IMG/VR virus record: IMGVR_UViG_3300045988_167732
Span: 32,001-96,000 of that record
Strand: one strand, 5' to 3'
Origin: a virus
Length of the DNA stretch: 64,000 nucleotides
The notes under the pieces were generated by a model. It saw only the letters and a program-made list of their open reading frames with translations. It was not told the origin of the DNA and ran no database searches. This document shows, piece by piece, positions 3,684 to 27,153 of this stretch (position 1 is its first letter; every line of letters starts with the position of its first letter). Both the position numbers and the translations under genes were made by a program.

Positions 3684-3688
3684 TTATA

Positions 3689-6388
3689 ATGAACTTTAAG
3701 CCAAGTACATATCAACAAGATATTTTAGATTTTTTTCTTAACAATCCTCAAAGTAACATGCTTGTAAATGCTTTGGCTGGAAGTGGTAAGTCAACAACTG
3801 CTTGTATGCTTTCTGAACATTCAAAAACTTCTGATTTATATATTGCATTTAATGCAAGCGTAGTTGAAGAGTTTAAGAAAAAAATTAAGAATCCTAAGAC
3901 TAAGGTTATGACGATGCATTCTTTAGCATATTCTATTATGCTTTATAATGTAGAACAAGAATCCAAGGATTCAGGAGAAAAGCCAAAAGGTTTTGGTTCT
4001 CAGCGCTCTAAAAGAACTGTGAGTTTAGATAATTTTAAGCCACATAAAATTCTTGATGAAGAAATTACAAAACGTTATGGTAGATATATTGAATTTGCCA
4101 AACGAGTTTTCTTGAAAGATAATTATGTAAATCTTTATAATTTATGCAGATTAACTCTTACAGATATGTCTTCAAATAAAGATGTATCTCGTTTAATTGA
4201 TGACCATGTGTTATTTTTATATTATGGTGATGAAGGTTATTCTGCACCCGATATTAGTGAAATTACTTCCACTTTGAAGATTCTTGATACTAAAAGTAGA
4301 CAGCAATTTGAAACTCAAGGTGTAATTGATTTTACTGACATGCTTTGGATTACTTTTAATAAACTTAAATATGATAATTGGGAAGTTCCTTATTGGGCTT
4401 TGTATACAAATATTTATTGTGATGAATGTCAAGATTTTAGTAATATCCAATTAAATTTCTTAAAGTTTATTAAAAGAGCTAAAGGAAGATATATTTTCAT
4501 TGGAGATTATCATCAATGTCAACCAGCAGGGACTAAAATTAAACTGATTGATGGAAAAGAAAAAAATATTGAAGATATTCAATATGGAGATAGAGTTGTA
4601 GAATATAGTACAAGTAGAGGTAGTTTTCTTTGTACTGAACGAGAGCGAGTGGGTGGCGGATTCGACAACTGTTTTTGTGGAGTAAAAAGTAAAGGTCTAT
4701 CTACCCCTAAATATTATACAGTATTAGACAAACAAGAATTTTTTACGGATTGTTTAATTAAAGTTACTCTTGAAAACGACTTTACGTCTCGTTATACAAC
4801 AAATCATAATTGTTATGTGAGATTTAATAGAGAAGCCACACAAAATGCCACTTGTCTTTATTTAATGGAAAGAAATGATGGTTATTTTAGAATTGGTACT
4901 GTAAAAATGTATGCTTCTCAAGCAACATTGGGAGTTAAGTATCGCGCAAGAGCAGAAAAGTTTGACCGTTGTTGGATTTTAGATGTTTTTGATAATGAAA
5001 CTTCTGCTTGGATGGCAGAGCAAACATATTCATTAAAATATCAAATTCCACAATTAATTTTTCAATTTGATAAAACTAAATATACTGAACAAGACTTAAT
5101 TACTTTATATAATGAGCTTCCTGAAATGAGAAGTAGAGCCATTGCTTTGTTAGAGTATTTTGGAAGAGATATTAATTATCCTTTGTGGTCAAGAGGAGAT
5201 ATTAATAATCATACTGCAAGAGACCATTGTTTTATTACACAATCGTGTAATATTATTCCTAAATATATGGATGCAATGATTTTTGATTCGACAAATACAA
5301 GGAAAAATAAAACAAGTATTGTTGCTACTTATAAAAATATTCAAAAAGTAGAAAAAGAGATTGGGGTTCAAAAAGTATATGGAATTACAACATCTTCTTA
5401 TCATAACTATATAGCTGATGGAATTTTAACTCATAATAGTATCTATAATTTTGCTGGTGCTAATGCTCAAGCTTTTAATCAAATTCCTAAGATGTTTGCT
5501 CCTGTAGAAACTTTTGATTTACCTATTTGTTATCGTTGTGCCAAATCTCATCTTAGTAGAGTAAATAGAGAATACGGAATTCCTATTCTTCCTCGTGATG
5601 GTGCTCCATTAGGATTCGTTAAAACTATTGACAAAAACAAAATTTCAGAGTATGCTAAAGCAGGAGACATGGTAATTTCCAGAAAAAACAAATGGATAGC
5701 TGAAGTAGTACTTGATTTAGCTCGAAATGGAACTCCCATTTTTATTGAAGATAAAGAGATGGTAGGGGCAATTAAAAGACAGATTTTATCATCCAAATGT
5801 ACCTCGGTTGGCGCACTCAAAAAATTTCTCCAGAAAGTAATAAGTAATTATAATAAAAAACTCTTTGAAATCGTTTCAAAAAATGTCCGTGAGGGGGGAC
5901 ACGAGGAAGAGCATTTGGAAGCCGTGACGGAGACAAATTCTAAGATAGATAACACGAGCTTTTTGTTGGAGATTTTGGAGGGTTATCTTGAACATCATGC
6001 TTCTTCTGACAGTGTTTCTAAATTCTCTAATTTTATTGATAAACTGTTAAATACGACTCCTTCTCCTAATTGTGTTAGACTTTGTAGTATCCATAAAGCT
6101 AAAGGTCTTGAAGCTACAAATGTTTTTGTTTTGAATGAAGCTAAAATTAATTACGATTTTAGGAATAGTAAAGAACAAAATATTCAGGAAAAGAATTTAA
6201 GTTATATTGCAACTACTCGTGCAAAAGAAGGTTTGTATCTTGTTAAAGAACCTTCTAAGACAATAACTACTAGAAATACTGATTATCTTCTTTCAGATAA
6301 CTATCTTCTTCCAGATAACGATGTCTTAAAGAAAAGGGAACAGGATTTTAAGAAAGCTATTGTACGAGAAACTATGGGTTGTTTTTAA
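3689..6388 (+). CDS. UvrD/PcrA-like SF1 helicase interrupted by an intein
   Basis: Walker A ALAGSGKST, DECQD, motif III GDYHQ/SIYNFAGA split by a Hint domain, C-terminal HKAKGLEA and TTRAKEGLY motifs. Confidence 0.85.
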   Translation: MNFKPSTYQQDILDFFLNNPQSNMLVNALAGSGKSTTACMLSEHSKTSDLYIAFNASVVEEFKKKIKNPKTKVMTMHSLAYSIMLYNVEQESKDSGEKPKGFGSQRSKRTVSLDNFKPHKILDEEITKRYGRYIEFAKRVFLKDNYVNLYNLCRLTLTDMSSNKDVSRLIDDHVLFLYYGDEGYSAPDISEITSTLKILDTKSRQQFETQGVIDFTDMLWITFNKLKYDNWEVPYWALYTNIYCDECQDFSNIQLNFLKFIKRAKGRYIFIGDYHQCQPAGTKIKLIDGKEKNIEDIQYGDRVVEYSTSRGSFLCTERERVGGGFDNCFCGVKSKGLSTPKYYTVLDKQEFFTDCLIKVTLENDFTSRYTTNHNCYVRFNREATQNATCLYLMERNDGYFRIGTVKMYASQATLGVKYRARAEKFDRCWILDVFDNETSAWMAEQTYSLKYQIPQLIFQFDKTKYTEQDLITLYNELPEMRSRAIALLEYFGRDINYPLWSRGDINNHTARDHCFITQSCNIIPKYMDAMIFDSTNTRKNKTSIVATYKNIQKVEKEIGVQKVYGITTSSYHNYIADGILTHNSIYNFAGANAQAFNQIPKMFAPVETFDLPICYRCAKSHLSRVNREYGIPILPRDGAPLGFVKTIDKNKISEYAKAGDMVISRKNKWIAEVVLDLARNGTPIFIEDKEMVGAIKRQILSSKCTSVGALKKFLQKVISNYNKKLFEIVSKNVREGGHEEEHLEAVTETNSKIDNTSFLLEILEGYLEHHASSDSVSKFSNFIDKLLNTTPSPNCVRLCSIHKAKGLEATNVFVLNEAKINYDFRNSKEQNIQEKNLSYIATTRAKEGLYLVKEPSKTITTRNTDYLLSDNYLLPDNDVLKKREQDFKKAIVRETMGCF
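4517..5437 (+). mobile_element. intein (307 aa) inside helicase motif III
   Basis: Starts with Cys (CQPAGTKIKLIDG). Has block B TTNHNCYV and ends ..GILTHN followed by Ser. Removal rejoins GDYHQ-SIYNFAGA. Confidence 0.8.
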
Positions 6389-6635: not shown

Positions 6636-7355
6636 ATGGCTAATATTTTTAGTCGCAATTACAAGTTTGATGAGCCAAAGGTAACTTCTACTCAGAATAA
6701 GGATTATTTTACTACCGCAGTTGCTTCTACTGATGAAGATGGTAAGATTGTTTCTACTTCTGGTTATGTTTCTGTTTTGAAGCCCAAGGTAATGCATTGT
6801 CCTGACTGTGGTTGTCCTCTTGTGGTGCGTGATGGTAAGCTTGAATTTGCCGATGAAGATGATGAAGTCGATGATAACAGTTATGAAAATCCTGTTGAGT
6901 ACGAAGAAGTAAATAAGGATATGTTCGACCTTCCTCCTTATTACAATATCTGTTATGGTATCCCCGCTGACCTCTCTTTAGGTAGCGATACTGCTCGTAG
7001 ACTTGACAATTATTATCATATTGTTGATAAGATTCCTAATAAGTTTGATGAGCGTTGTGCTGGTGAAGCTATTTGGATTCGGAATTTATTTTTACTTATG
7101 ATTGCTAATAAGAAGTATGAACCAATTACTATGACTAATCTTGAACATTGTGTTGAAGACCTTGCTCAATATTGTATTAATGAAGAGATTTCTTATCTTG
7201 CTATGCCTTTTATTGGGTGTGGTAAGGGTAATCTTGATTGGGAAGATGTTCGTGAAATGATTCTTCGTGTTTTTACTGAAACGATTGAAGATGCTAAAAA
7301 GTTTGACGAGGTAAGCAAGAATTATAAGATTCATCTTACTTTCTGCTACCAGTAA
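6636..7355 (+). CDS. zinc-ribbon protein with possible C-terminal macro-like domain
   Basis: HCPDCGCP ribbon. C-terminal LAMPFIGCGKGNLDWEDV resembles the macro-domain IGcGxgGL loop. AAG/CTT-type codon usage. Confidence 0.5.
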   Translation: MANIFSRNYKFDEPKVTSTQNKDYFTTAVASTDEDGKIVSTSGYVSVLKPKVMHCPDCGCPLVVRDGKLEFADEDDEVDDNSYENPVEYEEVNKDMFDLPPYYNICYGIPADLSLGSDTARRLDNYYHIVDKIPNKFDERCAGEAIWIRNLFLLMIANKKYEPITMTNLEHCVEDLAQYCINEEISYLAMPFIGCGKGNLDWEDVREMILRVFTETIEDAKKFDEVSKNYKIHLTFCYQ

Positions 7356-7395
7356 TTTAACTGATTGGATTAGTAAAAAATAACTGAATAAACCC

Positions 7396-7424
7396 TTGAC
7401 AAAAGTAAATCTCTATGGTAATCT
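7396..7424 (+). promoter_or_regulatory. sigma70-type promoter
   Basis: TTGACA 7396-7401, N17, TAATCT. The spacer (7404-7417) is a 14-bp inverted repeat of 7428-7441. Confidence 0.6.
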
Positions 7425-7462
7425 AATCATAGAGATTTACTTATTAAGAAAGGAAGTGGAAA

Positions 7463-8389
7463 ATGCCCTATAAAAAAAGAAAAGATAATTTGTGGTGTGT
7501 TTATAAGCATACAAGCCCTTCTGGTGGAGTATATATAGGAATAACAAGTGATTATCCTTTAGCAAGGTGGAGAAATGGTCGAGGATATGATTGTTGTGAA
7601 ATTATGAATAAAGCTATAAAAAAATACGGTTGGGAAAATTTTACTCATGAAATATTATTTGATAATTTAACAAAAGAAGAAGCTTGTTAGAAAGAAATAG
7701 AATTAATAGCCTTTTACAAAAATTAGGGACATTGTTATAATTTAGCTGAACGGGGAACTAATGGATTAGCTTCAGAAGAAACTAAAAAGAAAATGTCTTC
7801 AAATAGACAACGGAAAAACGCTCATGGTTGGCGGCATGTTGTTTCTTTAGAAACTAAACAAACGGTAGCTAAAAAAATAAAAGGAATTAAAAGAAATTCA
7901 AAGACAAAAGAAAAATTAAGTAGCACGCATAGCAAAAAAGTTTACTAGTATAATTTAGATGGAGAATTAATTCAGGAATGGGACAGCGTATATCAAGCAT
8001 CTAATATATTAGGATTAGCTCGAAGTCCAATTACACGTTGTAGATTATATTAGCAAAAAACTTATTAGAACTGTTTATGGCTGCTTGATTATATTGATGC
8101 CGTATTAATATAGAAATATTTAAACGATGAAATCATTATTCCTCCGATTAAAAATAAGTCTTTATTACAAAAGAAAGTAAGTTGTTTTTAGGATGAGAAA
8201 AAAATTAAAACTTTTGATTCTATAAAAGAAGCTTCAAAATGGTCAAAAATTACTGAACAGCAAATTCGGTATGCTTGTAAAAATAATAAAATTGCAGGAG
8301 AATATTATTGGAAATATGAAGAAGATTATTTTGGTGACAATTATTTTCTTTATTGGGCCAATAATTAGGACAAAATAAAATAGGAGTAA
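7463..8389 (+). CDS. GIY-YIG homing endonuclease with NUMOD/IENR-like C-terminal repeats; needs read-through of 9 in-frame TAG codons
   Basis: N-terminal GVYIGIT..Y..R motif. Beyond the first TAG the same frame gives typical VYxYNLDGELIQEWDSVYQAS and IKTFDSIKEASKW..GEYYWKY repeats. The first TAA is at 8387. Confidence 0.8.
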
Positions 8390-8390
8390 T

Positions 8391-9650
8391 ATGGAATATT
8401 GTAAATATCTTATTTTAGTAGACCCTAATAATAATGGGGTTGATTCAAACAAATTCTACAAAATGGCTGGAAATGGTGATAATACGTTTACTGTAGAATA
8501 TGGTCGTGTTGGTGCTGCTCCTCAAACTAAAACTTATCCTATGTCTAAATGGAATTCTACTCTTTCTTCTAAGTTGAAGAAGGGATATGTTGACCGTTCT
8601 GATTTAATGCAGGAAGTTATTGCTGATTCTAAAGTTGAAGACAAGTCTAATGGTGTAGATGAATTTGGTTTGGTTCAAAACCTATCTGTCCGAGAGATTA
8701 TCAAGCGTCTTTGGGATTATGCTAATAAGACTATTCAATCTGCTTATTCTGTTCGTGCTGAAGCTGTTACTCAGGCTATGATTGATGCCGCTCAGGAAAA
8801 GATTGACTATATTGCAGCGAATTACAAAAACTGGTCTGTTGAGGAATTTAATAAGAATTTAAATGAGTTGTTCATTATTGTTCCTCGTAAGATGAAGCGT
8901 GTTTCTGATTGTCTTGTTTCTGATTCTTCCGAATATGATAAAAAGCTTTCCGAGGAACAGAGCTTGCTTGATACTATGGCTGGTCAAGTTTATAAACCCA
9001 AGGCAAAAATTGCTGACACTGATTCTGAGATTAAGGCTTCTGAAAGCATTTTGCAGAAGATGGGTATTACCATGGAAGAAGCTACTCAGGAAGATGTTGC
9101 TAAAATTAAAAAGGCAATGGGCGATTCTGCTGGGAAGTTTTACAAGGCTTGGCGTGTCACTAATCTTGAGACAGAAAAGAATTATCAGAAGTTTACAACT
9201 GAAAATAATATCGGTAATGTAAAACTTCTTTGCCATGGTAGTCGCAATCAGAATTGGTTTAACATTCTTAAGATGGGCTTGAAAATTCGTCCTGCTGGTG
9301 CAATTGCAACAGGAAGTATGTTTGGCCTTGGAATCTATTGGTCCAACCCTGAAAAGTACAAAGGAGGAGTAGCTAAGTCTATTGGGTACACTTCTTTGGG
9401 TGGATATTGGACTCGTGATTATCAGAATTGTGGCTTCCTTGCCTTCTTTGATGTAGCTATCGGAGATAGTGTTGATGCCTATTCTTTTGATTCCAAGTAT
9501 TATTCTTATAATCTTGAGAGACTAAAAAAGGACAATCCTAAAGCTTGGAGTTTGTGGGCTCATGGCAATACTTCTATGCTTCGCAACGATGAAATTATCG
9601 TTTACGATGACAGACAGATGACTATTCGATATTTAGTGGAGATTAGATAA
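8391..9650 (+). CDS. PARP-like ADP-ribosyltransferase with N-terminal WGR domain
   Basis: WGR-like FYKM..TVEYGRVG. C-terminal H-Y-E pattern: LLCHGS, GLGIYWS, NDEIIVY. Confidence 0.8.
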   Translation: MEYCKYLILVDPNNNGVDSNKFYKMAGNGDNTFTVEYGRVGAAPQTKTYPMSKWNSTLSSKLKKGYVDRSDLMQEVIADSKVEDKSNGVDEFGLVQNLSVREIIKRLWDYANKTIQSAYSVRAEAVTQAMIDAAQEKIDYIAANYKNWSVEEFNKNLNELFIIVPRKMKRVSDCLVSDSSEYDKKLSEEQSLLDTMAGQVYKPKAKIADTDSEIKASESILQKMGITMEEATQEDVAKIKKAMGDSAGKFYKAWRVTNLETEKNYQKFTTENNIGNVKLLCHGSRNQNWFNILKMGLKIRPAGAIATGSMFGLGIYWSNPEKYKGGVAKSIGYTSLGGYWTRDYQNCGFLAFFDVAIGDSVDAYSFDSKYYSYNLERLKKDNPKAWSLWAHGNTSMLRNDEIIVYDDRQMTIRYLVEIR

Positions 9651-9651
9651 A

Positions 9652-10143
9652 ATGATTGGTGAAATGCAGACTGCTTCTAGTGTAACTTTTGGTATTCCTT
9701 CTGATTTTCCTTCTCTTGTAGACTCTGTTGTGGGTTCTCTTAAAAAGGGATATAGAGATTATTGTTTTACAAATAAGCAACTAAAAGAAATTATTGAGAA
9801 ATGCCATGAGGCAAATGTAAGTTTTGCTTATCGTAAGCAGTTAGATGAAGATTGCAAGATTGAATATATTGAACTTATTCCTTGTACTTTTTATTTTGCA
9901 GAAACAGTTGAGGAAAATAAGGTAGAAAACATTCAAGTAGCAATGGAAAATCTTCCTGTGGCATTGATTTTCTGTCCTAAAAATAATAAGACTGATATTA
10001 CTATTGATGCTGATTATCAGGAAAAGAACGAAAAAAGAGTGAAGAGTTATAAGAAGCTTGCATATTTCGATGATGATGGTTATCCAGTATATATTGAAGA
10101 CCTTACGAGAATGAAAGAAGAAAAAGAAAATGGAACTTTCTAA
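9652..10143 (+). CDS. hypothetical protein
   Basis: 163-aa ORF starting 1 nt after the upstream stop. Confidence 0.7.
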   Translation: MIGEMQTASSVTFGIPSDFPSLVDSVVGSLKKGYRDYCFTNKQLKEIIEKCHEANVSFAYRKQLDEDCKIEYIELIPCTFYFAETVEENKVENIQVAMENLPVALIFCPKNNKTDITIDADYQEKNEKRVKSYKKLAYFDDDGYPVYIEDLTRMKEEKENGTF

Positions 10144-11020
10144 TGAATAGAAAGAAGTTTTATATGGATGCCTTTTGGGGGATGGAAATTTAAATATTCA
10201 CAAAAGCGCTAAAAATGCTACTTTTTCTTATACTTGTATTGATAAAGAAACGGTAGAAAAAGTTGCTTCTTATTTTACCAAAGATTTTTTCGGTAAGGTA
10301 TCTTTTTGTTAGTATTTTGACAAAAGAACCAATAAGGTTTATAGTCGTTATACTTATAGAACTTTATCATCTCCTGTTTTAACTGAAGAATATTATAATT
10401 GGTATCCCGATAAAAAGAAAATCATACCAAAAATAAATTTTACTCCCTTGATATGTTATTGGTGGTATATAGGTGACGGATGTTTAGATAAAAGACGTAT
10501 TTTTTTAGCGACAGATTGTTTTCCTAAAAGTAATCTGGAAGAAATCGTTTTGCCTAAATTAAACGATTTTTCACCAAGATTAATTAAAAATGGGAAAGAA
10601 ACTCATTTTAGGACTTGTTTTTCAGTTGAACGGTCTCAAAAATTTTTAGAGTATATTGGTGAATGTACTTTACCACATTTTTCTTATAAATGGGATTTTG
10701 TTCCTTTTGTAAATAATAAATATAATTTTTCAGAAAAAGAATAGAAAAATATTCTTTATTTAGCCAATCAAAATTTATCTCCTTTTTAGATTTCTAAAAT
10801 CATTTAGAAATATAATGTAGATACAATACGTTATTTTTTAAAGCAAAAAGGATTATATTCTCCTAAAGGCAACAAAGGCGCTCATTTGAAAACATTAATT
10901 AAAGAAAAAATTAATTCTCGGTTATCAGTGGAATTGATTTTAAAAGATTTAAATATTACTTTAGAACAATATTAGTATTTTTAGGATTTTGAAAAATTGA
11001 GGAATAAATATGGAATATAA
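10130..11020 (+). CDS. LAGLIDADG homing endonuclease with C-terminal HTH-like tail; needs read-through of 7 in-frame TAG codons
   Basis: Two LAGLIDADG-type motifs (LLGDGNL, WYIGDGCL) lie in one frame interrupted only by TAG. The frame continues past 10744 into LSPFxISKII..DTIRYFLK and ends at TAA 11018. Confidence 0.8.
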
Positions 11021-11834
11021 GACATTAGGTGACAGGATGAAGGGGGCTTATGAAAACAAATATCGTAATTATCTTCCTGAGAATCTTCCTGTTATCATAA
11101 GAGAAGACGGTGCTCATTTTCACAATTTCTGCCGTGGCATGAAGAAACCTTTCGACCCTATTTTTGTTAAAACCATGCAACAGACTATGCTTAAGCTCTG
11201 TGAACTTATTCCTAATGTTAAGTTTGGTTATGTTGAGTCTGATGAAATTTCTCTTGTCATGATTCAAAGTGAAAGAAATTCTCAGCCTTGGTTTGATAAT
11301 AATATTCAAAAGATTGTTAGTACATCTGCGGCTCTTTGCACTCTTTGGTTTAACAATTATTTTGCTGAGAATACTATTATTGATACAACCTTGGATATCT
11401 TTAATATAGACAAAGATTCTTACGATTGGAAAATGGTTCGTAAAGGACAAGAAATGCCTACTTTTGATAGTAGAGTATTTGTGGTCCCTGCCTTTGAAGT
11501 GCATAATTATTTTGTTTGGAGACAGCAGGATTGTACTCGAAATTCTATTCAGGCAGTTGCTCAATCTTTGTATTCTCAAAAAGAACTTCATGGTATTAAT
11601 ACTACCAAATTACAGGATAAGATGTTTACTGAAAAGGGTGTAAACTGGAACGATTATACGACAGTAGAGAAACGTGGTACTTGTGCTTATCGTATTCCTA
11701 CTACTGTTATTGGTAAAGATGGTCAAGAGACTATTCGTTATAAATGGATTCTTGATTATGAAATGCCAATTTTAACAAGTGAAGAAGGTAAAGACTTTAT
11801 TAGTCAGAAGGTATTTACCAATGAGTCTGTTTAA
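11010..11834 (+). CDS. Thg1-like protein (tRNA-His guanylyltransferase / 3'-5' polymerase family)
   Basis: GDRMKxYE, IREDGAHFHNF and FGYVESDEISLV match the Thg1 N-terminal catalytic motifs. Confidence 0.8.
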   Translation: MEYKTLGDRMKGAYENKYRNYLPENLPVIIREDGAHFHNFCRGMKKPFDPIFVKTMQQTMLKLCELIPNVKFGYVESDEISLVMIQSERNSQPWFDNNIQKIVSTSAALCTLWFNNYFAENTIIDTTLDIFNIDKDSYDWKMVRKGQEMPTFDSRVFVVPAFEVHNYFVWRQQDCTRNSIQAVAQSLYSQKELHGINTTKLQDKMFTEKGVNWNDYTTVEKRGTCAYRIPTTVIGKDGQETIRYKWILDYEMPILTSEEGKDFISQKVFTNESV

Positions 11835-12261
11835 AAATATTGCAAGAGCAAAACAATTAATTGATTTTAGTGGTTTGAATGTAAGAGGCACTAAAATTTA
11901 TCCTACAGATACAGATTACTATATGGAATTATGGGATTAGGGCTGTGCTTTAGGAGAGTTTAAATATAATAATAAGCCCATTGAAAAAGGTCAATATCTT
12001 TGTTTATCAAGACATGTCAAAACTTATACAATGGCAGGAAAATTTGCAATGGGGTTTATAGCCGACCACTATGTAAAAGACCCAGAAGATATGGTTCCTG
12101 CGGCAGAATGTTATGTTAGAGAATATTGTTATACAGGTATGTCTTTAAATGATAAAGGAGAGTATGAATTAATTTCTCCTAAGAAACCAACCACTGTAAA
12201 AGAATTACAGGATTGGTTTGTCAGAGAATGTCGATATAGGCGTAGAGTAAGTTTAGATTAA
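11821..12261 (+). CDS. hypothetical protein (1 in-frame TAG)
   Basis: ATG 11821 is in frame with track ORF 12031..12261; only a TAG near 11938 separates them. Confidence 0.7.
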
Positions 12262-12291
12262 ATTATATAAATAAGAAAGGAGATAAGTCCA

Positions 12292-12819
12292 ATGCAGTTT
12301 CAAGTTATGAGTCGTAGAGATTGTGTTAAGTATAGTTATGGTTCTCATGAAGAATCTTCTATTGTAATTAGCATTAACGATTCTGCCGATATTGGAGTGC
12401 GTCAACTTCCTAATAAATTTAATAACATTAAAGCGCAATTATCTCTCTTTTTTGATGACATTCAGCCATATAGAGGTATGAAATACTGGAAGAAAGATGA
12501 AGGCGTAATTATAGAAAATTATACAAACGCAGAGGGGTTTGTATATGAGTCTCGCATGTATCAGCTTATGACTGAAAAAGATGCTAAGAAAATTATTGAT
12601 TTTGTCAATAAATGGTATAATAAAGTAGACAAAATTATTGTACATTGCAATGCTGGAATTAGTCGTTCTTCTGGTGTTTGCGCTGGTATTATGAAATGTT
12701 TTACAGGTGATGATAGTCAGATTTATGATAATCCATATTATCATCCCAATACCTTGTGTTATAATTTAATTTTAAATGAATATTATAAGGAAGGAGGAAA
12801 AAGTAATGGAGACGCTTAA
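12292..12819 (+). CDS. Cys-based phosphatase (PTP/dual-specificity, CX5R)
   Basis: Active-site signature VHCNAGISRSSG. Confidence 0.75.
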   Translation: MQFQVMSRRDCVKYSYGSHEESSIVISINDSADIGVRQLPNKFNNIKAQLSLFFDDIQPYRGMKYWKKDEGVIIENYTNAEGFVYESRMYQLMTEKDAKKIIDFVNKWYNKVDKIIVHCNAGISRSSGVCAGIMKCFTGDDSQIYDNPYYHPNTLCYNLILNEYYKEGGKSNGDA

Positions 12820-16559: not shown

Positions 16560-16704
16560 GCAGGATTAGTGTTAGCGGTTAGCACGACGGTCTTCCCCTT
16601 TAATAGTTTAATGTAAAACCAATATGAAAATATTGATGTAAGTTCAAATCTTATTTAAAGGTCCAAAACCGTAAGGGCGAGTTCGAATCTCGTATCTTGC
16701 TCCA
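16560..16704 (+). tRNA. tRNA-Gly(TCC) interrupted in the anticodon loop by a 69-nt tRNA-like element
   Basis: Acceptor GCAGGAT/ATCTTGC, D-stem GTGT/GCAC, anticodon stem ACGGT/ACCGT, T-arm GCGAG-TTCGAAT-CTCGT, discriminator T plus CCA. Removing 16597-16665 leaves the loop CTTCCAA. Confidence 0.75.
16597..16665 (+). ncRNA. nested tRNA-like element (acceptor, D-arm, GAAA hairpin, T-arm, TCCA end)
   Basis: CCTTTAA/TTAAAGG acceptor, GTTT/AAAC D-stem, CAATAT-GAAA-ATATTG hairpin, GTAAG-TTCAAAT-CTTAT T-arm, then T-CCA. Confidence 0.7.
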
Positions 16705-17466: not shown

Positions 17467-17589
17467 TTGACACTCACAGCAAATTTATTTTATGTTTTTG
17501 GAATAACGTCGTGTAAGGTTCGACTCCTTATTAACAAATCCCTTGAGCAAGGAATAGTTAACCGTAGATGGCTAGAAAAAAAGTGTTAA
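17467..17589 (+). ncRNA. P1/ACAGCAA structured RNA, copy 1 (contains T-arm-like hairpin)
   Basis: TTGACACT..AGTGTTAA closing stem, CACAGCAA after the 5' arm, internal TAAGG-TTCGACT-CCTTA, A-run before the 3' arm. Confidence 0.65.
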
Positions 17590-19651: not shown

Positions 19652-19680
19652 TTGACATCTTAAAGATGATATGCTATAAT
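19652..19680 (+). promoter_or_regulatory. consensus sigma70 promoter driving a P1 element and tRNA-Glu
   Basis: TTGACA-N17-TATAAT, exact consensus. Confidence 0.75.
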
Positions 19681-19716: not shown

Positions 19717-19832
19717 TAGACTCTTACAGCAAATTCCTAAAAAGGTTAACACAATTGTCTGCAAAACAATCATTAGCGAGTTCGATTCTCGTCAGAGGGC
19801 GCTCTGTGGTGAATAATACGCAAAAGAGTCTA
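19717..19832 (+). ncRNA. P1/ACAGCAA structured RNA, copy 2 (T-arm plus closed acceptor-like hairpin)
   Basis: TAGACTCT..AGAGTCTA stem, TACAGCAA, GCGAG-TTCGATT-CTCGT followed by the CAGAG-GGCG-CTCTG hairpin. Confidence 0.7.
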
Positions 19833-20092: not shown

Positions 20093-20224
20093 TAGAGACT
20101 AACAGCAATTTTGAAAATATGTTAAAAAGCCAAGCTCCCATTCTTCGGTTCGAATCCGAACGTCTTCAGTTGAAGTATGTAGCCAAGTGGTTTAAGGCAG
20201 GAGTCCATAACAACAATGTCTCTA
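20093..20224 (+). ncRNA. P1/ACAGCAA structured RNA, copy 3 (circularly permuted tRNA-like fold)
   Basis: TAGAGAC..GTCTCTA stem. Order of parts: GCTCC, T-arm TTCGG-TTCGAAT-CCGAA, short closed acceptor hairpin CTTC-AGTT-GAAG, D-arm-like AGCCAAGTGGTTTAAGGC, then GGAGT pairing back to GCTCC. Confidence 0.7.
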
Positions 20225-20232
20225 GTATTTAT

Positions 20233-20375
20233 GCCCGTGTAGCTCAGTAGGAAGAGCACTTGCCTTGATGGAGTAGTATAAGAAATACATCCTATAAAGG
20301 AAGGTGTGAGTTCAAATCTCATTTTCATCACCGTTAAGCAAGGAGTCGAGAGTTCGAGCCTCTCCACGAGCACCA
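20233..20375 (+). tRNA. tRNA-Lys(TTT) (alternative reading Asn-GTT) interrupted by a 67-nt tRNA-like element
   Basis: Canonical D and T arms, anticodon stem CTTGC/GCAAG, discriminator A plus CCA, one C-A mismatch in the acceptor. Removing 20267-20333 leaves CTTTTAA. Confidence 0.65.
20267..20333 (+). ncRNA. nested tRNA-like element (ACCG end)
   Basis: GATGGAG/TTTCATC acceptor, GTAT-AAGAA-ATAC D-arm, GTGAG-TTCAAAT-CTCAT T-arm. Confidence 0.65.
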
Positions 20376-20411: not shown

Positions 20412-20474
20412 TAGACGCTTGCAGCAATTTTAATTGTACTTATCTGTTAAATAAGAATGCATAAAAAGCGTCTA
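20412..20474 (+). ncRNA. P1/ACAGCAA structured RNA, copy 4 (minimal, 63 nt)
   Basis: TAGACGCT..AGCGTCTA 8-bp stem, TGCAGCAA, A-run before the 3' arm. Confidence 0.6.
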
Positions 20475-20503
20475 GCCCCTTTCTAAAAGGAGAAATTAAA
20501 AAT

Positions 20504-20588
20504 GGGTGAGTAGTGAATCGGCAAACACGGGAGTCTGTAAAACTCTTTCTTAACGGAGTAGAAGGGTCGGCACCTTCCTCACCCACCA
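20504..20588 (+). tRNA. tRNA-Tyr(GTA), class II, CCA encoded
   Basis: Anticodon loop CTGTAAA, long variable arm, unusual T-loop GTCGGCA. Confidence 0.8.
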
Positions 20589-20800: not shown

Positions 20801-20829
20801 TTGACAAAATGAAAATTTTGCGCTATAGT
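20801..20829 (+). promoter_or_regulatory. sigma70-type promoter
   Basis: TTGACA-N17-TATAGT. Confidence 0.7.
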
Positions 20830-20907
20830 AAAAATATGATAAAGATACAAATTTATTTGTAAGCTAATTGTTCATTTTTTATTGTTCATAAAAGCATTCC
20901 TTTCAGG

Positions 20908-21036
20908 TAGACTCTAACAGCAACTTTACAATCACAAATGCTATGGGCCTGTTTGTTGGAGGTTCGAATCCTTCACTCCCGACCATCGGGAGTTAGCTCA
21001 ACGGATAGAGCAACAGATTTTGTAAAAATGAGTCTA
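20908..21036 (+). ncRNA. P1/ACAGCAA structured RNA, copy 5: circularly permuted tRNA (3' half-ACCA-T-5' half)
   Basis: TAGACTC..GAGTCTA stem. GGAGG-TTCGAAT-CCTTC T-arm, ACTCCCG-A-CCA, one T, then CGGGAGT-TA-GCTC..GAGC D-arm and a U-rich anticodon-like segment. The acceptor is a perfect 7 bp. Confidence 0.7.
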
Positions 21037-21099
21037 GTCAATAAATTAATAAATTGACGCTCCTATTTTTCTAATAGGCAAATATAAATTCCTTTCAAG

Positions 21100-21215
21100 T
21101 AGACACGTACAGCAAAATTACTTGATGCTTTAATATGGAAAATTAACGATAAGGTTCGACTCCTTAATCTTCTTTTGAAGATGCGTGGTTGCTGGAAATC
21201 AAAAAAACGTGTCTA
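21100..21215 (+). ncRNA. P1/ACAGCAA structured RNA, copy 6 (T-arm plus closed acceptor-like hairpin)
   Basis: TAGACACG..CGTGTCTA stem, CAGCAA pairs with TTGCTG, TAAGG-TTCGACT-CCTTA followed by ATCTTC-TTTT-GAAGAT. Confidence 0.7.
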
Positions 21216-25445: not shown

Positions 25446-25564
25446 TAGACGCTTACAGCAAACAATAATAAAATCAAATTCTATAAAAAAGATTTATGGT
25501 ATTGTTCCTTGCTAATTAGTTTATGATGCTTTCATGATTCTCCTTTGTTAGTATTATGCGTCTA
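25446..25564 (+). ncRNA. P1/ACAGCAA structured RNA, copy 7
   Basis: TAGACGC..GCGTCTA stem, TTACAGCAA. AGCAAACAATA can pair with TATTGTTCCTTGCT. Confidence 0.6.
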
Positions 25565-25696: not shown

Positions 25697-25759
25697 TAAA
25701 CCCTTACAGCAATTTAATTATTTAATTTTTGCTTGAAAAAAGATTAAGGATAGGGTTTA
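25697..25759 (+). ncRNA. P1/ACAGCAA structured RNA, copy 8 (minimal)
   Basis: TAAACCCT..AGGGTTTA stem, TACAGCAA. Confidence 0.6.
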
Positions 25760-25779: not shown

Positions 25780-25865
25780 TAGACACATACAGCAATTAAA
25801 ATAAAAATACTGGGAAATATATTTAATTGGAATAAATACTTTTTTTAGATTTTTTATTGTGTCTA
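25780..25865 (+). ncRNA. P1/ACAGCAA structured RNA, copy 9
   Basis: TAGACACA..TGTGTCTA stem, TACAGCAA. Confidence 0.6.
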
Positions 25866-25876
25866 GGATTTTATAT

Positions 25877-26010
25877 GCTGATATAGCTCAATAGGTTAGA
25901 GCTTCCGACCACGAAATAGCTTAAGAAAAGCAAAGGATGTAAGTTCAAATCTTACTTTCGTGACCATTATAATCGGAGGGTTGAGTGTTCGAGCCACTCT
26001 ATCAGCACCA
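25877..26010 (+). tRNA. tRNA-Ile(TAT) interrupted by a 57-nt tRNA-like element
   Basis: Canonical arms, anticodon stem TCCGA/TCGGA, A-CCA end. Removing 25910-25966 leaves CTTATAA. Confidence 0.75.
25910..25966 (+). ncRNA. nested tRNA-like element (ACCA end, no anticodon arm)
   Basis: CACGAAA/TTTCGTG acceptor, GCTT-AAGAA-AAGC D-arm, 7-nt linker, GTAAG-TTCAAAT-CTTAC T-arm, A-CCA. Confidence 0.75.
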
Positions 26011-26919: not shown

Positions 26920-26987
26920 TAGACTCTTACAGCAATTACTTAGAGACTTGTGATTTGGGATTACATATGTTTTGAAAAATGAGTCTA
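26920..26987 (+). ncRNA. P1/ACAGCAA structured RNA, copy 10 (minimal)
   Basis: TAGACTC..GAGTCTA stem, TTACAGCAA, A-run before the 3' arm. Confidence 0.6.
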
Positions 26988-27078: not shown

Positions 27079-27153
27079 TGAGGAGTAGCATAGCGGCAAA
27101 TGCACTAGTCTCTAAAACTAGGTAAACAGGGTCGGCACCTGTCTCCTCTGCCA
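27079..27153 (+). tRNA. suppressor tRNA, anticodon CTA (reads UAG)
   Basis: Anticodon arm CTAGT-CTCTAAA-ACTAG, T-arm ACAGG-GTCGGCA-CCTGT, G-CCA end. D-loop, anticodon arm and T-loop closely resemble the phage tRNA-Tyr, but the long variable arm is missing. Positions 1:72 form a T-T mismatch. Confidence 0.75.

What the first reader, a model, noticed from the sequence alone, without database searches (positions are those of the whole stretch)
20908..21036. Circularly permuted tRNA gene inside a P1/ACAGCAA element
Within the TAGACTC/GAGTCTA stem the order of parts is: anticodon-stem 3' strand (CTGTT), variable region, T-arm GGAGG-TTCGAAT-CCTTC, acceptor 3' strand ACTCCCG, discriminator A, CCA, a single T, acceptor 5' strand CGGGAGT, TA, D-arm GCTC-AACGGATA-GAGC, anticodon-stem 5' strand, and a U-rich anticodon-like stretch (TTTTG). 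The acceptor is a perfect 7 bp. The 3' half lying directly upstream of the 5' half is the arrangement known from permuted tRNA genes of the red alga Cyanidioschyzon merolae, where a circular intermediate is formed. I am not aware of it in phages. RNase P cleavage after the single T would give a two-piece tRNA held together by the acceptor, anticodon and P1 helices.
Basis: partly seen in the sequence, partly recalled or inferred. Interest (0 to 1): 0.85.

Follow-up and report, generated by a model that had tools for sequence, protein, structure and literature searches.

The report
Phage Y-RNA-like tRNA mimic
The "inside-out tRNA" is really in the sequence, but it is most likely a phage Y-RNA-type tRNA mimic: a small structured RNA that probably docks a Ro60-like protein encoded in the same genome, not a gene for a working tRNA.

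Summary
Observation confirmed. Window 20908-21036 holds, inside a 7-bp outer stem (P1), a T-arm, a perfect 7-bp acceptor helix closed by an ACCAU loop, a D-arm and a short anticodon-like stem, in 3'-half-before-5'-half order.

Interpretation not supported as stated. This order is the defining architecture of YrlA, the tRNA-mimicking bacterial and phage Y RNA. Rfam's YrlA model matches end to end (41.4 bits, E 2.5e-6, below the curated 69 bits). No anticodon loop or circularisation motif exists.

The element is one of 11 "P1 + ACAGCAA" elements in the window. One lies directly before a DUF2828/vWA gene whose predicted fold matches Ro60. In 80 viral loci such elements pile up within 450 nt upstream of that gene (122 seen, about 2.4 expected). 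In 8 of 9 cultured phages sampled they flank it, including Felix O1, P100 and LeBron. Several of these copies carry the same closed-acceptor tRNA mimic.

Best reading: a Y-RNA-like partner of a phage Ro-like protein. RNase P cleavage into two paired halves has a precedent in M. smegmatis YrlA but is untested here. It is a new variant of a known kind. The ACAGCAA scaffold is absent from Rfam 15 and from the papers I could search.

The parts
20801..20829 (+). sigma-70-like promoter (TTGACA-17-TATAGT) about 78 nt upstream of P1
   Evidence: Consensus scan, 11 of 12 matches. It is a pattern match only.
20897..20907 (+). conserved box TTCCTTTCAGG just before P1. The same 14-mer, CCTTTCARGTAGAC, precedes the next element at 21091.
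   Evidence: Exact matches only at 20899 and 21091. Function unknown; it may be a processing site.
20908..20914 (+). P1 5' strand, TAGACTC
   Evidence: Pairs with 21030-21036. Invariant in 7 close copies. The equivalent helix covaries among sibling elements.
20917..20923 (+). ACAGCAA signature, single-stranded, next to P1. Proposed docking motif for the Ro-like protein.
   Evidence: 21 copies in the window against 9.6 expected. It is the fixed motif of elements that flank DUF2828 genes.
20931..20942 (+). AUCACAAAUGCU, the stretch that the Rfam YrlA model aligns to its 5' Ro-motif region (acggCgaAUGCu)
   Evidence: cmscan alignment. Only C-AA-UGCU is shared. The GNCGAA motif itself is not kept.
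20934..20939 (+). lower stem, 5' strand ACAAAT. Pairs with 21017-21023 with one bulged U. Predicted only.
   Evidence: Read from the sequence. The MFE fold offers an alternative pairing.
20949..20953 (+). anticodon-like stem, 3' strand CTGTT
   Evidence: Pairs with 21012-21016. L014 carries a C-to-U change that gives G-U. L055 breaks the last pair, so 4 bp are firm.
20958..20974 (+). T-arm GGAGG-TTCGAAT-CCTTC
   Evidence: G53, T54, T55, C56, A58 and C61 are invariant across 20 independent modules.
20975..20993 (+). closed acceptor hairpin ACTCCCG-ACCAT-CGGGAGT (7 bp, loop = discriminator A + CCA + U). The candidate RNase P site lies between 20986 and 20987.
   Evidence: All 7 pairs show double-sided changes across 20 modules. 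Cleavage is inferred from M. smegmatis YrlA.
20994..21011 (+). U8-A9 and D-arm GCTC-AACGGATA-GAGC
   Evidence: U8, A14 and a D-loop G are invariant in alignment A2.
21012..21016 (+). anticodon-like stem, 5' strand AACAG
21017..21029 (+). lower stem 3' strand ATTTTGT, followed by the A-rich joiner AAAAAT
   Evidence: An A-rich run before the P1 3' strand is a family feature.
21030..21037 (+). P1 3' strand GAGTCTA plus the conserved following G
   Evidence: G follows P1 in 80% of 102 family members.
17467..17589 (+). sibling P1/ACAGCAA element (T-arm plus hairpin insert), 13 nt before tRNA-Ser
19717..19832 (+). sibling element (T-arm plus 5-bp hairpin), 9 nt before tRNA-Glu. A perfect sigma-70-like promoter lies at 19652-19680.
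20093..20224 (+). sibling element with T-arm, 5-bp closed hairpin and a Leu/Ser-type D-arm. A weaker tRNA mimic.
   Evidence: R1 model scores 22.8 bits at 20136-20203.
20412..20474 (+). minimal sibling element (motif variant GCAGCAA)
21100..21215 (+). sibling element (T-arm plus closed hairpin), 10 nt before tRNA-Leu
25446..25564 (+). sibling element
25697..25759 (+). minimal sibling element (P1 TAAACCCT)
25780..25865 (+). sibling element, 11 nt before an interrupted tRNA
26920..26987 (+). minimal sibling element, 10 nt before tRNA-Arg
39340..39399 (+). minimal P1/ACAGCAA element in the 5' leader of the Ro-like gene. It ends 23 nt before the ATG.
   Evidence: The same placement occurs in orthologous loci down to about 45% protein identity.
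39423..41144 (+). DUF2828 + DUF7788 (vWA) protein, 573 aa. A Ro60-like ring protein and the proposed partner of the elements.
   Evidence: Pfam. AF2 model with pLDDT 67.8. The Foldseek top 8 hits are TROVE/Ro60 structures, E 8e-7 to 2e-4, over the full length. GenBank homologues are annotated 'Ro-like RNA binding protein'.

Best explanation
The 129-nt element is a Y-RNA-like non-coding RNA of the YrlA type.

Transcription (inferred): it is transcribed with the tRNA array, with a promoter-like site at 20801-20829.

Fold: its 5' and 3' ends pair (P1) beside a single-stranded ACAGCAA. This stem plus motif is the conserved scaffold of a family of 11 elements in the window. I propose it is the docking site of the phage's Ro60-like protein (DUF2828/vWA, 39423-41144). 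The distal part folds as an L-shaped tRNA mimic. It has a T-arm, a D-arm with the universal tertiary-contact bases, a 7-bp acceptor helix closed by an ACCAU loop, and a short anticodon-like stem. That stem leads into the scaffold rather than ending in an anticodon loop.

Function (inferred): as in known Ro-Y RNA particles, the scaffold would hold the protein and the tRNA-like module would present a tRNA shape to tRNA-recognising factors. Candidates are RNase P, the CCA-adding enzyme, modification or repair enzymes, or an exonuclease.

Processing (inferred): because the acceptor has 7 bp and the loop encodes A-CCA-U, RNase P may cut between 20986 and 20987. That would give two halves that stay paired and expose a CCA end, as shown for M. 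smegmatis YrlA.

Shown here: the anatomy, the sub-threshold homology to YrlA, the family, the Ro-like fold of the protein, and the genomic linkage.

Inferred only: binding, processing and the effector.
For: 1. YrlA homology. Rfam YrlA (RF02553) aligns over model positions 1-114 at 20931-21029, with 41.4 bits and E 2.5e-6. The T-arm, closed hairpin, D-arm and enclosing stem are in register.

2. Independent copies of the same module.
- They occur in unrelated viral contigs and cultured phages and also score as YrlA: L250 47.8 bits, L008 42.7, L227 40.6, LeBron 39.8, L134 37.2, L233 31.5.
- Across 20 such modules the T and acceptor stems are 99.6% paired.
- 11 of 12 pairs change on both sides.
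- The covariation score is 1.12 against 0.25 in shuffles and 0.15-0.25 in slid controls.
- The invariant bases are U8, A14, a D-loop G, G53, T54, T55, C56, A58 and C61.

3. Published YrlA has this same order and a closed acceptor, and its crystal structure is a close tRNA mimic (PMC4201824; 10.1101/312249).

4. The partner protein is Ro-like. The AF2 model of the DUF2828 protein matches Ro60/TROVE structures best (9KOP, 1YVR, 1YVP, 9NEN; probability 1.00; 530-630 aligned columns).

5. The scaffold tracks that gene.
- In 80 DUF2828 loci there are 329 P1+CAGCAA elements on the gene strand and 109 on the other strand.
- Of the 329, 122 end within 450 nt upstream of the gene, against about 2.4 expected. 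This holds in 59 of 80 loci.
- Elements flank the gene in Felix O1, P100, LeBron, NCTC12673, Tsamsa, EF1, S-CoN_Ph7 and phiM7.
- In LeBron the only tandem set in 73 kb lies directly after Ro-like gp53, and there is none in its tRNA cluster.

6. Closed-acceptor tRNA mimics sit beside the Ro-like gene elsewhere. They lie inside this scaffold, 0.1-1.3 kb from the gene on the same strand, in L134, L347, LeBron, Felix O1 and phiM7; Tsamsa's copy lies about 1.6 kb upstream. All 27 strong R1-model hits in the 80 loci are on the gene strand.

7. Local conservation. In the close clade the stems, the motif and the ACCAT loop are invariant, while loops vary.
Against: - The Rfam score is below the curated YrlA threshold (41.4 against 69 bits).
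- The YrlA/Ro motif GNCGAAN0-1G is not present. The aligned stretch reads CACAAAUG, and the family signature is ACAGCAA instead.
- In this window the element is 18.4 kb from the Ro-like gene, beyond the 4 kb typical for YrlA.
- The protein is DUF2828, not Pfam TROVE. Its Ro-likeness rests on a medium-confidence model (pLDDT 67.8, TM 0.35-0.51).
- No binding, expression or processing data exist.
- Most window siblings sit 9-13 nt upstream of tRNA genes, which would also fit a purely cis role in tRNA precursor processing.
- Part of the covariation set was chosen for having a paired acceptor.
- The apparent excess of NCCA loops is biased, because two of the collection scans required CCA.
Confidence: 0.72

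Rival explanations
1. This is a true circularly permuted tRNA gene. The precursor's ends are cut and ligated to form a circle, closing an anticodon loop. RNase P and 3' trimming then open the circle at the acceptor to give a normal, decoding tRNA.
For: The 3' half lies directly upstream of the 5' half, with a perfect 7-bp acceptor, an encoded ACCA and a 1-nt linker. The halves re-joined in silico are called a tRNA by ARAGORN. All 16 tRNA genes of the window encode CCA. The phage also carries tRNA genes interrupted by tRNA-like inserts, so unusual tRNA processing and ligation may exist in it.
Against: - There is no 7-nt anticodon loop or defined junction. The anticodon-like stem continues into a second helix, a 9-nt internal loop and P1.
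- No bulge-helix-bulge motif is present.
- No splicing endonuclease or RNA ligase was found among the window's large ORFs.
- The same P1/ACAGCAA frame encloses simple hairpins, or T-arm-only inserts, in 10 sibling elements.
- Relatives have non-CCA loops (UCUUU, CCUAU, CUA, AGGU) and 5-bp acceptors, which a real tRNA could not tolerate.
- The arrangement is fully explained by YrlA.
Confidence: 0.03
2. This is a two-piece tRNA-like RNA that, after RNase P cleavage, is aminoacylated and acts in translation or in another aminoacyl-transfer reaction, independently of any Ro-like protein.
For: It has a 7-bp acceptor, a discriminator A73, an encoded CCA and a C1:G72 pair like the phage's own tRNA-Pro (CGGGGAT...ATCTCCGACCA). 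M. smegmatis YrlA halves carry CCA in vivo.
Against: There is no anticodon. [quoted passage not shown] CCA is not conserved among relatives found without requiring it (2 of about 11). The linkage to the Ro-like gene would be left unexplained.
Confidence: 0.05
3. This is a cis-acting spacer or leader of the tRNA array. P1 and the tRNA-like fold only guide RNase P, RNase E or RNase III processing, or the folding of neighbouring pre-tRNAs. The excised piece has no function of its own.
For: Seven window siblings end 9-13 nt before a tRNA gene. In Felix O1 the elements are interleaved with tRNAs. No terminator follows the element.
Against: - This particular copy is not followed by a tRNA. The next feature is another element.
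- In LeBron, S-CoN_Ph7 and phiM7 the elements flank the Ro-like gene with no tRNA gene adjacent. LeBron's tRNA cluster has none.
- Minimal elements sit in the 5' leader of the Ro-like gene in many lineages.
Confidence: 0.12
4. This is a decaying remnant of a tandem duplication of one tRNA gene (the 3' half of copy 1 plus the 5' half of copy 2), or a chance tRNA-tRNA junction, with no function.
For: Dimeric tRNAs can score as YrlA false positives (Chen et al.). My own model R1 also hits ordinary tRNA-tRNA junctions at 20-50 bits.
Against: - The neighbouring halves that such a remnant would need are absent.
- The acceptor strands of the two 'halves' pair 7 of 7 and covary in 19 independent lineages.
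- Stems and the loop are invariant in 7 close copies while loops drift.
- The element has its own promoter-like site and P1 frame.
- R1 scores it 73 bits, far above junction hits.
Confidence: 0.03
5. This is the acceptor piece of a two-piece (permuted) tmRNA.
For: Permuted ssrA genes also place the CCA-bearing 3' piece upstream of the 5' piece (from my own knowledge).
Against: ARAGORN, which detects permuted tmRNA, finds none here. The element is only 129 nt, with no tag reading frame, resume codon or pseudoknots. It has a full D-arm, which tmRNA lacks.
Confidence: 0.01

Closest known systems
YrlA (Y RNA-like A; Rfam RF02553), the tRNA-mimicking Y RNA bound by bacterial Ro60/Rsr (Chen et al. 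2014, PMC4201824; Wang et al. 2018, 10.1101/312249)
   Same: The order is the same: enclosing stem, V region, T-arm, closed acceptor-like hairpin, D-arm, return strand. The conserved tRNA tertiary-contact bases are the same. Both are encoded on the same strand as a Ro60-like gene. The full-length Rfam match is significant by E-value.
   Different: The score is below Rfam's curated threshold. The GNCGAAN0-1G motif is replaced by a P1 + ACAGCAA signature. The protein partner candidate is DUF2828-type rather than Pfam TROVE. Here it is one of 11 elements spread through a tRNA array, 18 kb from the gene.
Mycobacterium smegmatis YrlA specifically
   Same: [quoted passage not shown] It is cut by RNase P in vitro and in vivo at the tRNA 5'-end position, the 5' half ends in CCA, and both halves stay bound to Rsr. 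The window element has the same 7 bp, with ACCA already encoded in the loop.
   Different: In M. smegmatis the CA is added after cleavage; here CCA is genomic. Cleavage is untested here.
Phage Ro60 with Y-RNA-like RNAs: Thermus phage phiLo phiRo60 with Yrl1/Yrl2 (PMC12135203; PDB 9KOP), and the 22 phages of Chen et al. 2014
   Same: A phage-encoded Ro60-like ring protein has small stem-bulge-stem RNAs encoded in tandem next to its gene. 9KOP is the best structural match of the window's protein.
   Different: phiLo Yrls carry a CGAA motif and are not described as tRNA mimics. The protein here belongs to the DUF2828 branch.
Deinococcus radiodurans Yrn1
   Same: It is a Y RNA with a T-arm-containing tRNA-like module that tethers Ro to an effector (PNPase).
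   Different: Yrn1 has the other topology, with an anticodon-like arm between the D and T regions. That topology is seen in some sibling elements of other phages (for example L350) but not in this element.
Circularly permuted tRNA genes of Cyanidioschyzon merolae
   Same: The 3' half is encoded directly upstream of the 5' half of one cloverleaf.
   Different: Those mature through a circular RNA made at a bulge-helix-bulge junction by the eukaryal/archaeal splicing machinery, and they yield a tRNA with a normal anticodon loop (from my own knowledge). Here there is no such junction, no anticodon loop and no such enzymes.
Two-piece (permuted) tmRNA
   Same: It is a permuted tRNA-like domain whose pieces stay paired.
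   Different: There is no mRNA-like part here, and ARAGORN is negative.

Membership tests
YrlA (Rfam RF02553) | Score at or above Rfam's gathering threshold (69 bits) | tested here: not met
   41.4 bits, E 2.5e-6, model positions 1-114 of 114.
YrlA (Rfam RF02553) | tRNA-like domain in the order T-arm, closed acceptor-like stem-loop, D-arm, with conserved tRNA tertiary-contact nucleotides | tested here: met
   U8, A14, a D-loop G, G53, T54, T55, C56, A58 and C61 are invariant in 20 modules. Stems covary.
YrlA (Rfam RF02553) | GNCGAAN0-1G motif near the 5' end (presumed Ro60 contact) | tested here: not met
   The aligned stretch is CACAAAUG. The family signature is ACAGCAA next to P1.
YrlA (Rfam RF02553) | Encoded within about 4 kb of, and on the same strand as, a Ro60 orthologue | tested here: inconclusive
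   The strand is the same, but the element is 18.4 kb from the Ro-like gene in the window. A sibling element abuts the gene (39340-39399). Equivalent tRNA mimics lie 0.1-1.6 kb from the gene in L134, L347, LeBron, Felix O1, phiM7 and Tsamsa.
YrlA (Rfam RF02553) | Bound by Ro60/Rsr; carries tRNA-type modifications | not testable with these tools
   Needs immunoprecipitation and modification mapping.
Y RNA (general) | 5' and 3' ends pair into a stem that carries a conserved protein-binding motif, with a variable distal module | tested here: met
   P1 with compensatory changes among siblings, an adjacent invariant motif and highly variable inserts. That the motif binds the protein is an inference.
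Ro60 / TROVE protein (the partner) | Pfam TROVE domain by sequence | tested here: not met
   Only DUF2828 and DUF7788 hit. phmmer against PDB sequences found nothing.
Ro60 / TROVE protein (the partner) | HEAT-repeat ring plus C-terminal vWA fold | tested here: met
   The Foldseek top 8 hits are TROVE/Ro60 structures over the full length, and the next hits are vWA/MIDAS domains. The model has medium confidence.
Circularly permuted tRNA gene (C. merolae type) | 3' half upstream of 5' half of one cloverleaf in one transcript | tested here: met
Circularly permuted tRNA gene (C. merolae type) | Termini form a bulge-helix-bulge (or other defined) junction whose cutting and ligation closes a 7-nt anticodon loop | tested here: not met
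   The termini form a plain 7-bp P1 with ACAGCAA. Between P1 and the anticodon-like stem lie a second helix and a 9-nt internal loop. Family members enclose non-tRNA inserts.
Circularly permuted tRNA gene (C. merolae type) | Circular RNA intermediate and a mature linear tRNA | not testable with these tools
   Needs RNA data.
Two-piece tmRNA | Permuted tRNA-like domain plus tag-encoding piece | tested here: not met
   ARAGORN finds no tmRNA in the window or in the excised region. There is no reading frame within the 129 nt.

The most novel reading that the evidence does not exclude
P1 + ACAGCAA elements are a so far undescribed class of Y-type RNAs. They would be the dedicated partners of the DUF2828 branch of Ro60-like proteins, which is found in at least 695 GenBank phage records, including Felix O1, P100/A511-like phages, LeBron and Campylobacter and Enterococcus phages.

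The member in this window would be cut by RNase P to expose a genome-encoded CCA end. It would then be a two-piece tRNA mimic carried on a Ro-like ring. That mimic could engage, or decoy, tRNA repair, CCA-adding or even charging enzymes during infection.
Probability: 0.3. Interest if true: 0.8.

Novelty: new variant of a known kind. Interest (0 to 1): 0.6.

Why it matters
Ro60-Y RNA particles are conserved from bacteria to humans. Their bacterial and phage roles are still poorly understood, and their RNA partners are hard to find by homology.

If the reading here is right, a simple sequence and structure signature (an outer stem plus ACAGCAA) marks the RNA partners of a large phage branch of Ro-like proteins. 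That branch is currently annotated only as "DUF2828", "RNA-binding protein" or "vWFA protein". The signature occurs in model phages with tractable hosts (Salmonella, Listeria, M. smegmatis), so the question becomes directly testable.

It also shows that tRNA-derived modules of several topologies have been built into one scaffold. The present copy is the most tRNA-like of these, with a 7-bp acceptor and an encoded CCA.

For annotation, it warns that "permuted tRNA" patterns in phage tRNA arrays are likely Y-RNA-type mimics and not decoding tRNAs.

Tried and rejected
- Megablast of 4 kb around the element, and blastn of the element itself, against GenBank phages found no relatives. The only hit was one weak T-arm match.
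- phmmer of the DUF2828 protein against PDB sequences found nothing. A fold comparison was needed.
- Literature search for DUF2828 found only plant or tardigrade mentions. Two reviews on bacterial Y RNAs and the Burroughs and Aravind RNA-repair paper are not held. Prior description there cannot be excluded.
- The supplementary phage list of Chen et al. 2014 is not held.
- The first version of my P1 detector rejected true elements because of a G-U counting rule, and I fixed it.
- Rfam E-value scans of minimal elements (window 39250-39450 and L356 9600-10050) gave only noise.
- Covariance model R1 (T-arm + closed acceptor + D-arm) also hits ordinary tRNA-tRNA junctions at 20-50 bits. I used it only for top hits and strand bias, not as a classifier.
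- The excess of NCCA at the start of the acceptor loop looked striking, but it is biased because two scans required CCA. I set it aside as evidence.
- The cow-rumen-4 hit in L008 is an unrelated hairpin.
- The two-piece tmRNA idea was rejected.
- Descent from the phage's tRNA-Pro was considered: both share C1:G72 and A73, but there is only 46-position identity overall. It is unresolved.
Full report
**1. The observation.**

Window 20908-21036 reads TAGACTC-ta-ACAGCAA-...-CTGTT-tgtt-GGAGG-TTCGAAT-CCTTC-ACTCCCG-ACCAT-CGGGAGT-TA-GCTC-AACGGATA-GAGC-AACAG-attttgtaaaaat-GAGTCTA.

ARAGORN finds 16 ordinary tRNA genes in the window but nothing at this element. Rfam at curated thresholds finds only tRNAs.

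The fold is more stable than shuffles: -36.8 against -25.6 +/- 3.3 kcal/mol, z = -3.36, 0 of 200 shuffles as good. If the two halves are re-joined in silico with a 7-nt loop, ARAGORN calls a tRNA. The native order gives neither a tRNA nor a tmRNA.

**2. What the arrangement is.**

A permissive Rfam scan gives one non-tRNA match in the 17-kb tRNA region. It is YrlA ("Y RNA-like", RF02553) at 20931-21029, over model positions 1-114 of 114, with 41.4 bits and E 2.5e-6. The local-search E-value is 5.5e-8. The curated threshold is 69 bits. The alignment puts the T-arm, the closed hairpin, the D-arm and the enclosing stem in register with the YrlA consensus.

YrlA is the Ro60-bound bacterial Y RNA whose effector module mimics tRNA. 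[quoted passage not shown] Its crystal structure is a close tRNA mimic without a free CCA end (10.1101/312249).

So the "3' half before 5' half" order is the normal YrlA architecture. Chen et al. found such RNAs in 254 bacterial species and 22 phages.

**3. Relatives of the module.**

Pattern scans of viral contigs, followed by a test for acceptor complementarity, gave two groups.
- Six further distinct, near-identical copies came from large uncultivated phages (L014, L016, L055, L068, L072, L083).
- Many unrelated copies have different stems: L227, L250, L233, L134, L008 (two), L194, L136 (two) and L347 (three).

Rfam scores these as sub-threshold YrlA too, at 31-48 bits.

An alignment of 20 independent modules (A2) shows these invariant bases: U8, A14, a D-loop G, G53, T54, T55, C56, A58 and C61. 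These are the bases that build the tRNA elbow and core.

The T and acceptor stems are 99.6% paired, and 11 of 12 pairs change on both sides. The covariation score is 1.12, against 0.25 +/- 0.04 in shuffles (0 of 500 as high) and 0.15-0.25 when partners are slid. A caveat applies: several members were picked because their acceptor pairs, so this overstates independence. Members found by another route (L134, L347, Felix O1, LeBron) show the same hairpin.

Within the close clade, no position varies in P1 (0 of 14), ACAGCAA (0 of 7), the T-stem (0 of 10), the acceptor stem (0 of 14), the ACCAT loop (0 of 5) or the D-stem (0 of 8). The T-loop (2 of 7), the D-loop (4 of 8) and the linkers do vary.

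**4. The frame around the module.**

ACAGCAA is over-represented in the window (21 copies against 9.6 expected). On the + strand of the tRNA region it is almost always preceded by a 7-9-nt arm whose complement lies 40-120 nt downstream.

There are 11 such elements: 17467-17589, 19717-19832, 20093-20224, 20412-20474, 20908-21036, 21100-21215, 25446-25564, 25697-25759, 25780-25865, 26920-26987 and 39340-39399.

The inner three positions of P1 differ from copy to copy and are always compensated. Examples are TAGACTCTT/AAGAGTCTA, TAGACACGT/ACGTGTCTA, TAGACGC/GCGTCTA and TAAACCCT/AGGGTTTA.

The inserts range from a plain hairpin, through a T-arm plus hairpin, to the full tRNA mimic of the finding. 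Most copies end 9-13 nt before a tRNA gene. The finding's copy is followed by another element, not by a tRNA. Promoter-like sites lie upstream at 20801-20829 (11 of 12 matches) and 19652-19680 (12 of 12), and no terminator follows.

**5. The protein.**

The eleventh element ends 23 nt before the ATG (39423) of a 573-aa protein with Pfam DUF2828 + DUF7788. No Pfam TROVE protein is encoded among the window's large ORFs.

An AlphaFold2 model built from 30 homologues (pLDDT 67.8, pTM 0.53) matches these structures best in the PDB: the TROVE protein of Thermus phage phiLo (9KOP, E 8e-7), Xenopus Ro60 and human Ro60. The matches run over 530-630 columns with probability 1.00, and TM scores are 0.35-0.51. 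The next hits are vWA/MIDAS domains.

Homologues occur in 695 GenBank phage records, and many are annotated "Ro-like RNA binding protein". So the phage encodes a Ro60-like protein of a divergent branch.

**6. Linkage of the frame to that gene.**

- *Viral contigs.* I examined 80 viral-contig loci centred on DUF2828 genes with 44-96% identity to the window's. A simple detector (CAGCAA plus an adjacent arm of at least 7 bp closing within 230 nt) finds 329 elements on the gene strand and 109 on the other strand. Of the 329, 122 end within 450 nt upstream of the gene, in 59 of 80 loci. The opposite-strand density predicts about 2.4. They stand in tandem sets of one to four, and the last often abuts the ribosome-binding site.
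- *Consensus.* The family consensus is 5'-AAGACAC-(n)-ACAGCAA-UUU ... AAA-GUGUCUU-G, with covarying P1 positions.
- *Cultured phages.* In 8 of 9 cultured phages sampled, elements flank the gene on its strand:
  - Felix O1/FO1a: four elements downstream of gp42.
  - Listeria P100: three upstream of gp165.
  - Mycobacteriophage LeBron: three downstream of gp53, followed by a terminator-like hairpin and T-run.
  - Campylobacter NCTC12673: two.
  - Bacillus Tsamsa: three.
  - Enterococcus EF1: one.
  - Staphylococcus S-CoN_Ph7: three.
  - Sinorhizobium phiM7: one, plus a tRNA mimic 1.3 kb upstream.
  - Vibrio nt-1: none seen.
- *LeBron genome-wide.* In the whole 73-kb LeBron genome the only tandem set lies right after gp53. 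Its tRNA cluster, 20 kb away, has none, and the minus strand has none. So the elements follow the Ro-like gene and not tRNA arrays as such.
- *tRNA mimics in the same frame.* Closed-acceptor tRNA mimics occur next to the gene in L134, L347, LeBron (Rfam YrlA 39.8 bits), Felix O1, Tsamsa and phiM7. All 27 top hits of my model R1 in the 80 loci are on the gene strand, and many are 100-600 nt upstream and preceded by ACAGCAA.
- *Comparison with known loci.* This is the genomic signature by which Y RNAs were originally assigned to Ro60: tandem, same strand, adjacent.

**7. How it most likely works.**

The following are shown here:
- the tRNA-like anatomy;
- its sub-threshold homology to YrlA;
- the scaffold family;
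- the Ro-like fold of the protein;
- the linkage of the elements to the Ro-like gene.

The rest is inferred. The P1/ACAGCAA stem would be the protein's docking site, by analogy with the conserved stem and 5'-strand motif of Y RNAs. The copy in the gene's own leader suggests feedback or co-processing.

The tRNA-like module would be the effector end. It would present a tRNA shape to tRNA-binding enzymes or tether an exonuclease, as in Ro-Y RNA-PNPase complexes. The window also encodes a Thg1-like 3'-5' polymerase, PARP/WGR, Macro and DSP-phosphatase proteins just upstream of the tRNA array. This would fit an RNA-repair or conflict setting, but it is circumstantial.

With 7 bp and an encoded A-CCA-U loop, RNase P cleavage between 20986 and 20987 is plausible. 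It would leave two halves held by the acceptor, anticodon-like and P1 helices. That is what was found for M. smegmatis YrlA. It is untested here, and CCA is not general among relatives.

**8. Why it is not a permuted tRNA gene.**

- There is no anticodon loop and no defined junction.
- Between the anticodon-like stem and P1 lie a second helix and a 9-nt internal loop.
- The frame is shared with non-tRNA inserts.
- Relatives tolerate 5-bp acceptors and non-CCA loops.
- No circularisation machinery is evident.
- A two-piece tmRNA is excluded.
- A dead tandem-tRNA remnant is contradicted by the covariation, the conservation pattern and the 73-bit R1 score against 20-50 bits for tRNA junctions.
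- A purely cis spacer role remains the main rival. It does not explain LeBron-type loci.

**9. Novelty.**

Phage Ro60 with Y-RNA-like partners is known, and YrlA-type tRNA mimicry is known. Three things appear new:
- the P1 + ACAGCAA scaffold, which matches no Rfam 15 family;
- its tie to the DUF2828 branch of Ro-like proteins;
- its multiplication inside tRNA arrays.

[quoted passage not shown] Key reviews and the 2016 RNA-repair survey were not readable here, so earlier mention cannot be ruled out. I rate the finding a new variant of a known kind, with interest 0.6.

Noticed in passing
window 16560-16704, 20233-20375, 25877-25991: Three tRNA genes are interrupted in the anticodon loop by inserts of 54-69 nt that are themselves small tRNA-like RNAs. 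Each insert has its own acceptor stem, a T-arm and a 3' ACC or NCCA end. The Rfam tRNA hits are 16597-16662, 20267-20330 and 25910-25963, at 41-43 bits. The third would read UAU (Ile). The inserts are too small for group I introns. Maturation would need excision and ligation.
   Followed up: partly
window 27079-27153: A tRNA with anticodon CTA (an amber suppressor; ARAGORN labels it Pyl) directly abuts tRNA-Arg(tct) with no spacer. This hints at TAG recoding in this phage lineage.
   Followed up: no
window 6636-12819: A cluster of conflict or RNA-repair-type genes lies just upstream of the tRNA array. It comprises a Macro-domain protein (6636-7355), PARP catalytic + WGR (8391-9650), a Thg1-like tRNA-His guanylyltransferase family protein (11010-11834) and a DSP/Rit1-like phosphatase (12292-12819).
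   Followed up: no
window 3680-6388: A UvrD-type helicase has a weak intein-splicing-domain match in the middle (residues 294-586, below Pfam's cut-off).
   Followed up: no
window 62183-63502: An IS605 OrfB/TnpB (Cas12f-like TNB domain) gene. Its omega-RNA was not looked for.
   Followed up: no
window 20899-20912 and 21091-21104: An identical 14-mer, CCTTTCA(G/A)GTAGAC, spans the 5' edge of two adjacent elements. The TTCCTTTCA part lies outside P1 and is conserved in all close copies. It may be a processing or start site.
   Followed up: no
L406 (Listeria phage P100) 2420-2971: A ROOL RNA match (86 bits; curated threshold 99.1; E 3e-16) lies about 1 kb upstream of the Ro-like gene gp165 and its three P1/ACAGCAA elements. 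So a large ornate RNA and the Y-like RNAs are neighbours.
   Followed up: no
L350 6240-6361; L387 9762-9844; L377 9892-9955: Some P1/ACAGCAA elements of other phages enclose tRNA pieces in the normal order (D-arm, anticodon arm, T-arm, with P1 in place of the acceptor), or only an anticodon-arm-like hairpin (AGACUUUUAAUCU). So both tRNA-mimic topologies known from Yrn1 and YrlA occur in one scaffold family.
   Followed up: partly
L008 189-254: A cow-rumen-4 RNA (RF02948, 67.7 bits, above threshold) lies in the 5' leader of a gene of an unrelated viral contig. It has no relation to the finding.
   Followed up: yes
window 20475-20510: After element 20412-20474 comes a ribosome-binding-site-like AAAGGAG and an ATG whose 3-codon frame (ATG GGT GAG TAG) runs into the 5' end of tRNA-Tyr (20504). 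It is probably fortuitous.
   Followed up: no
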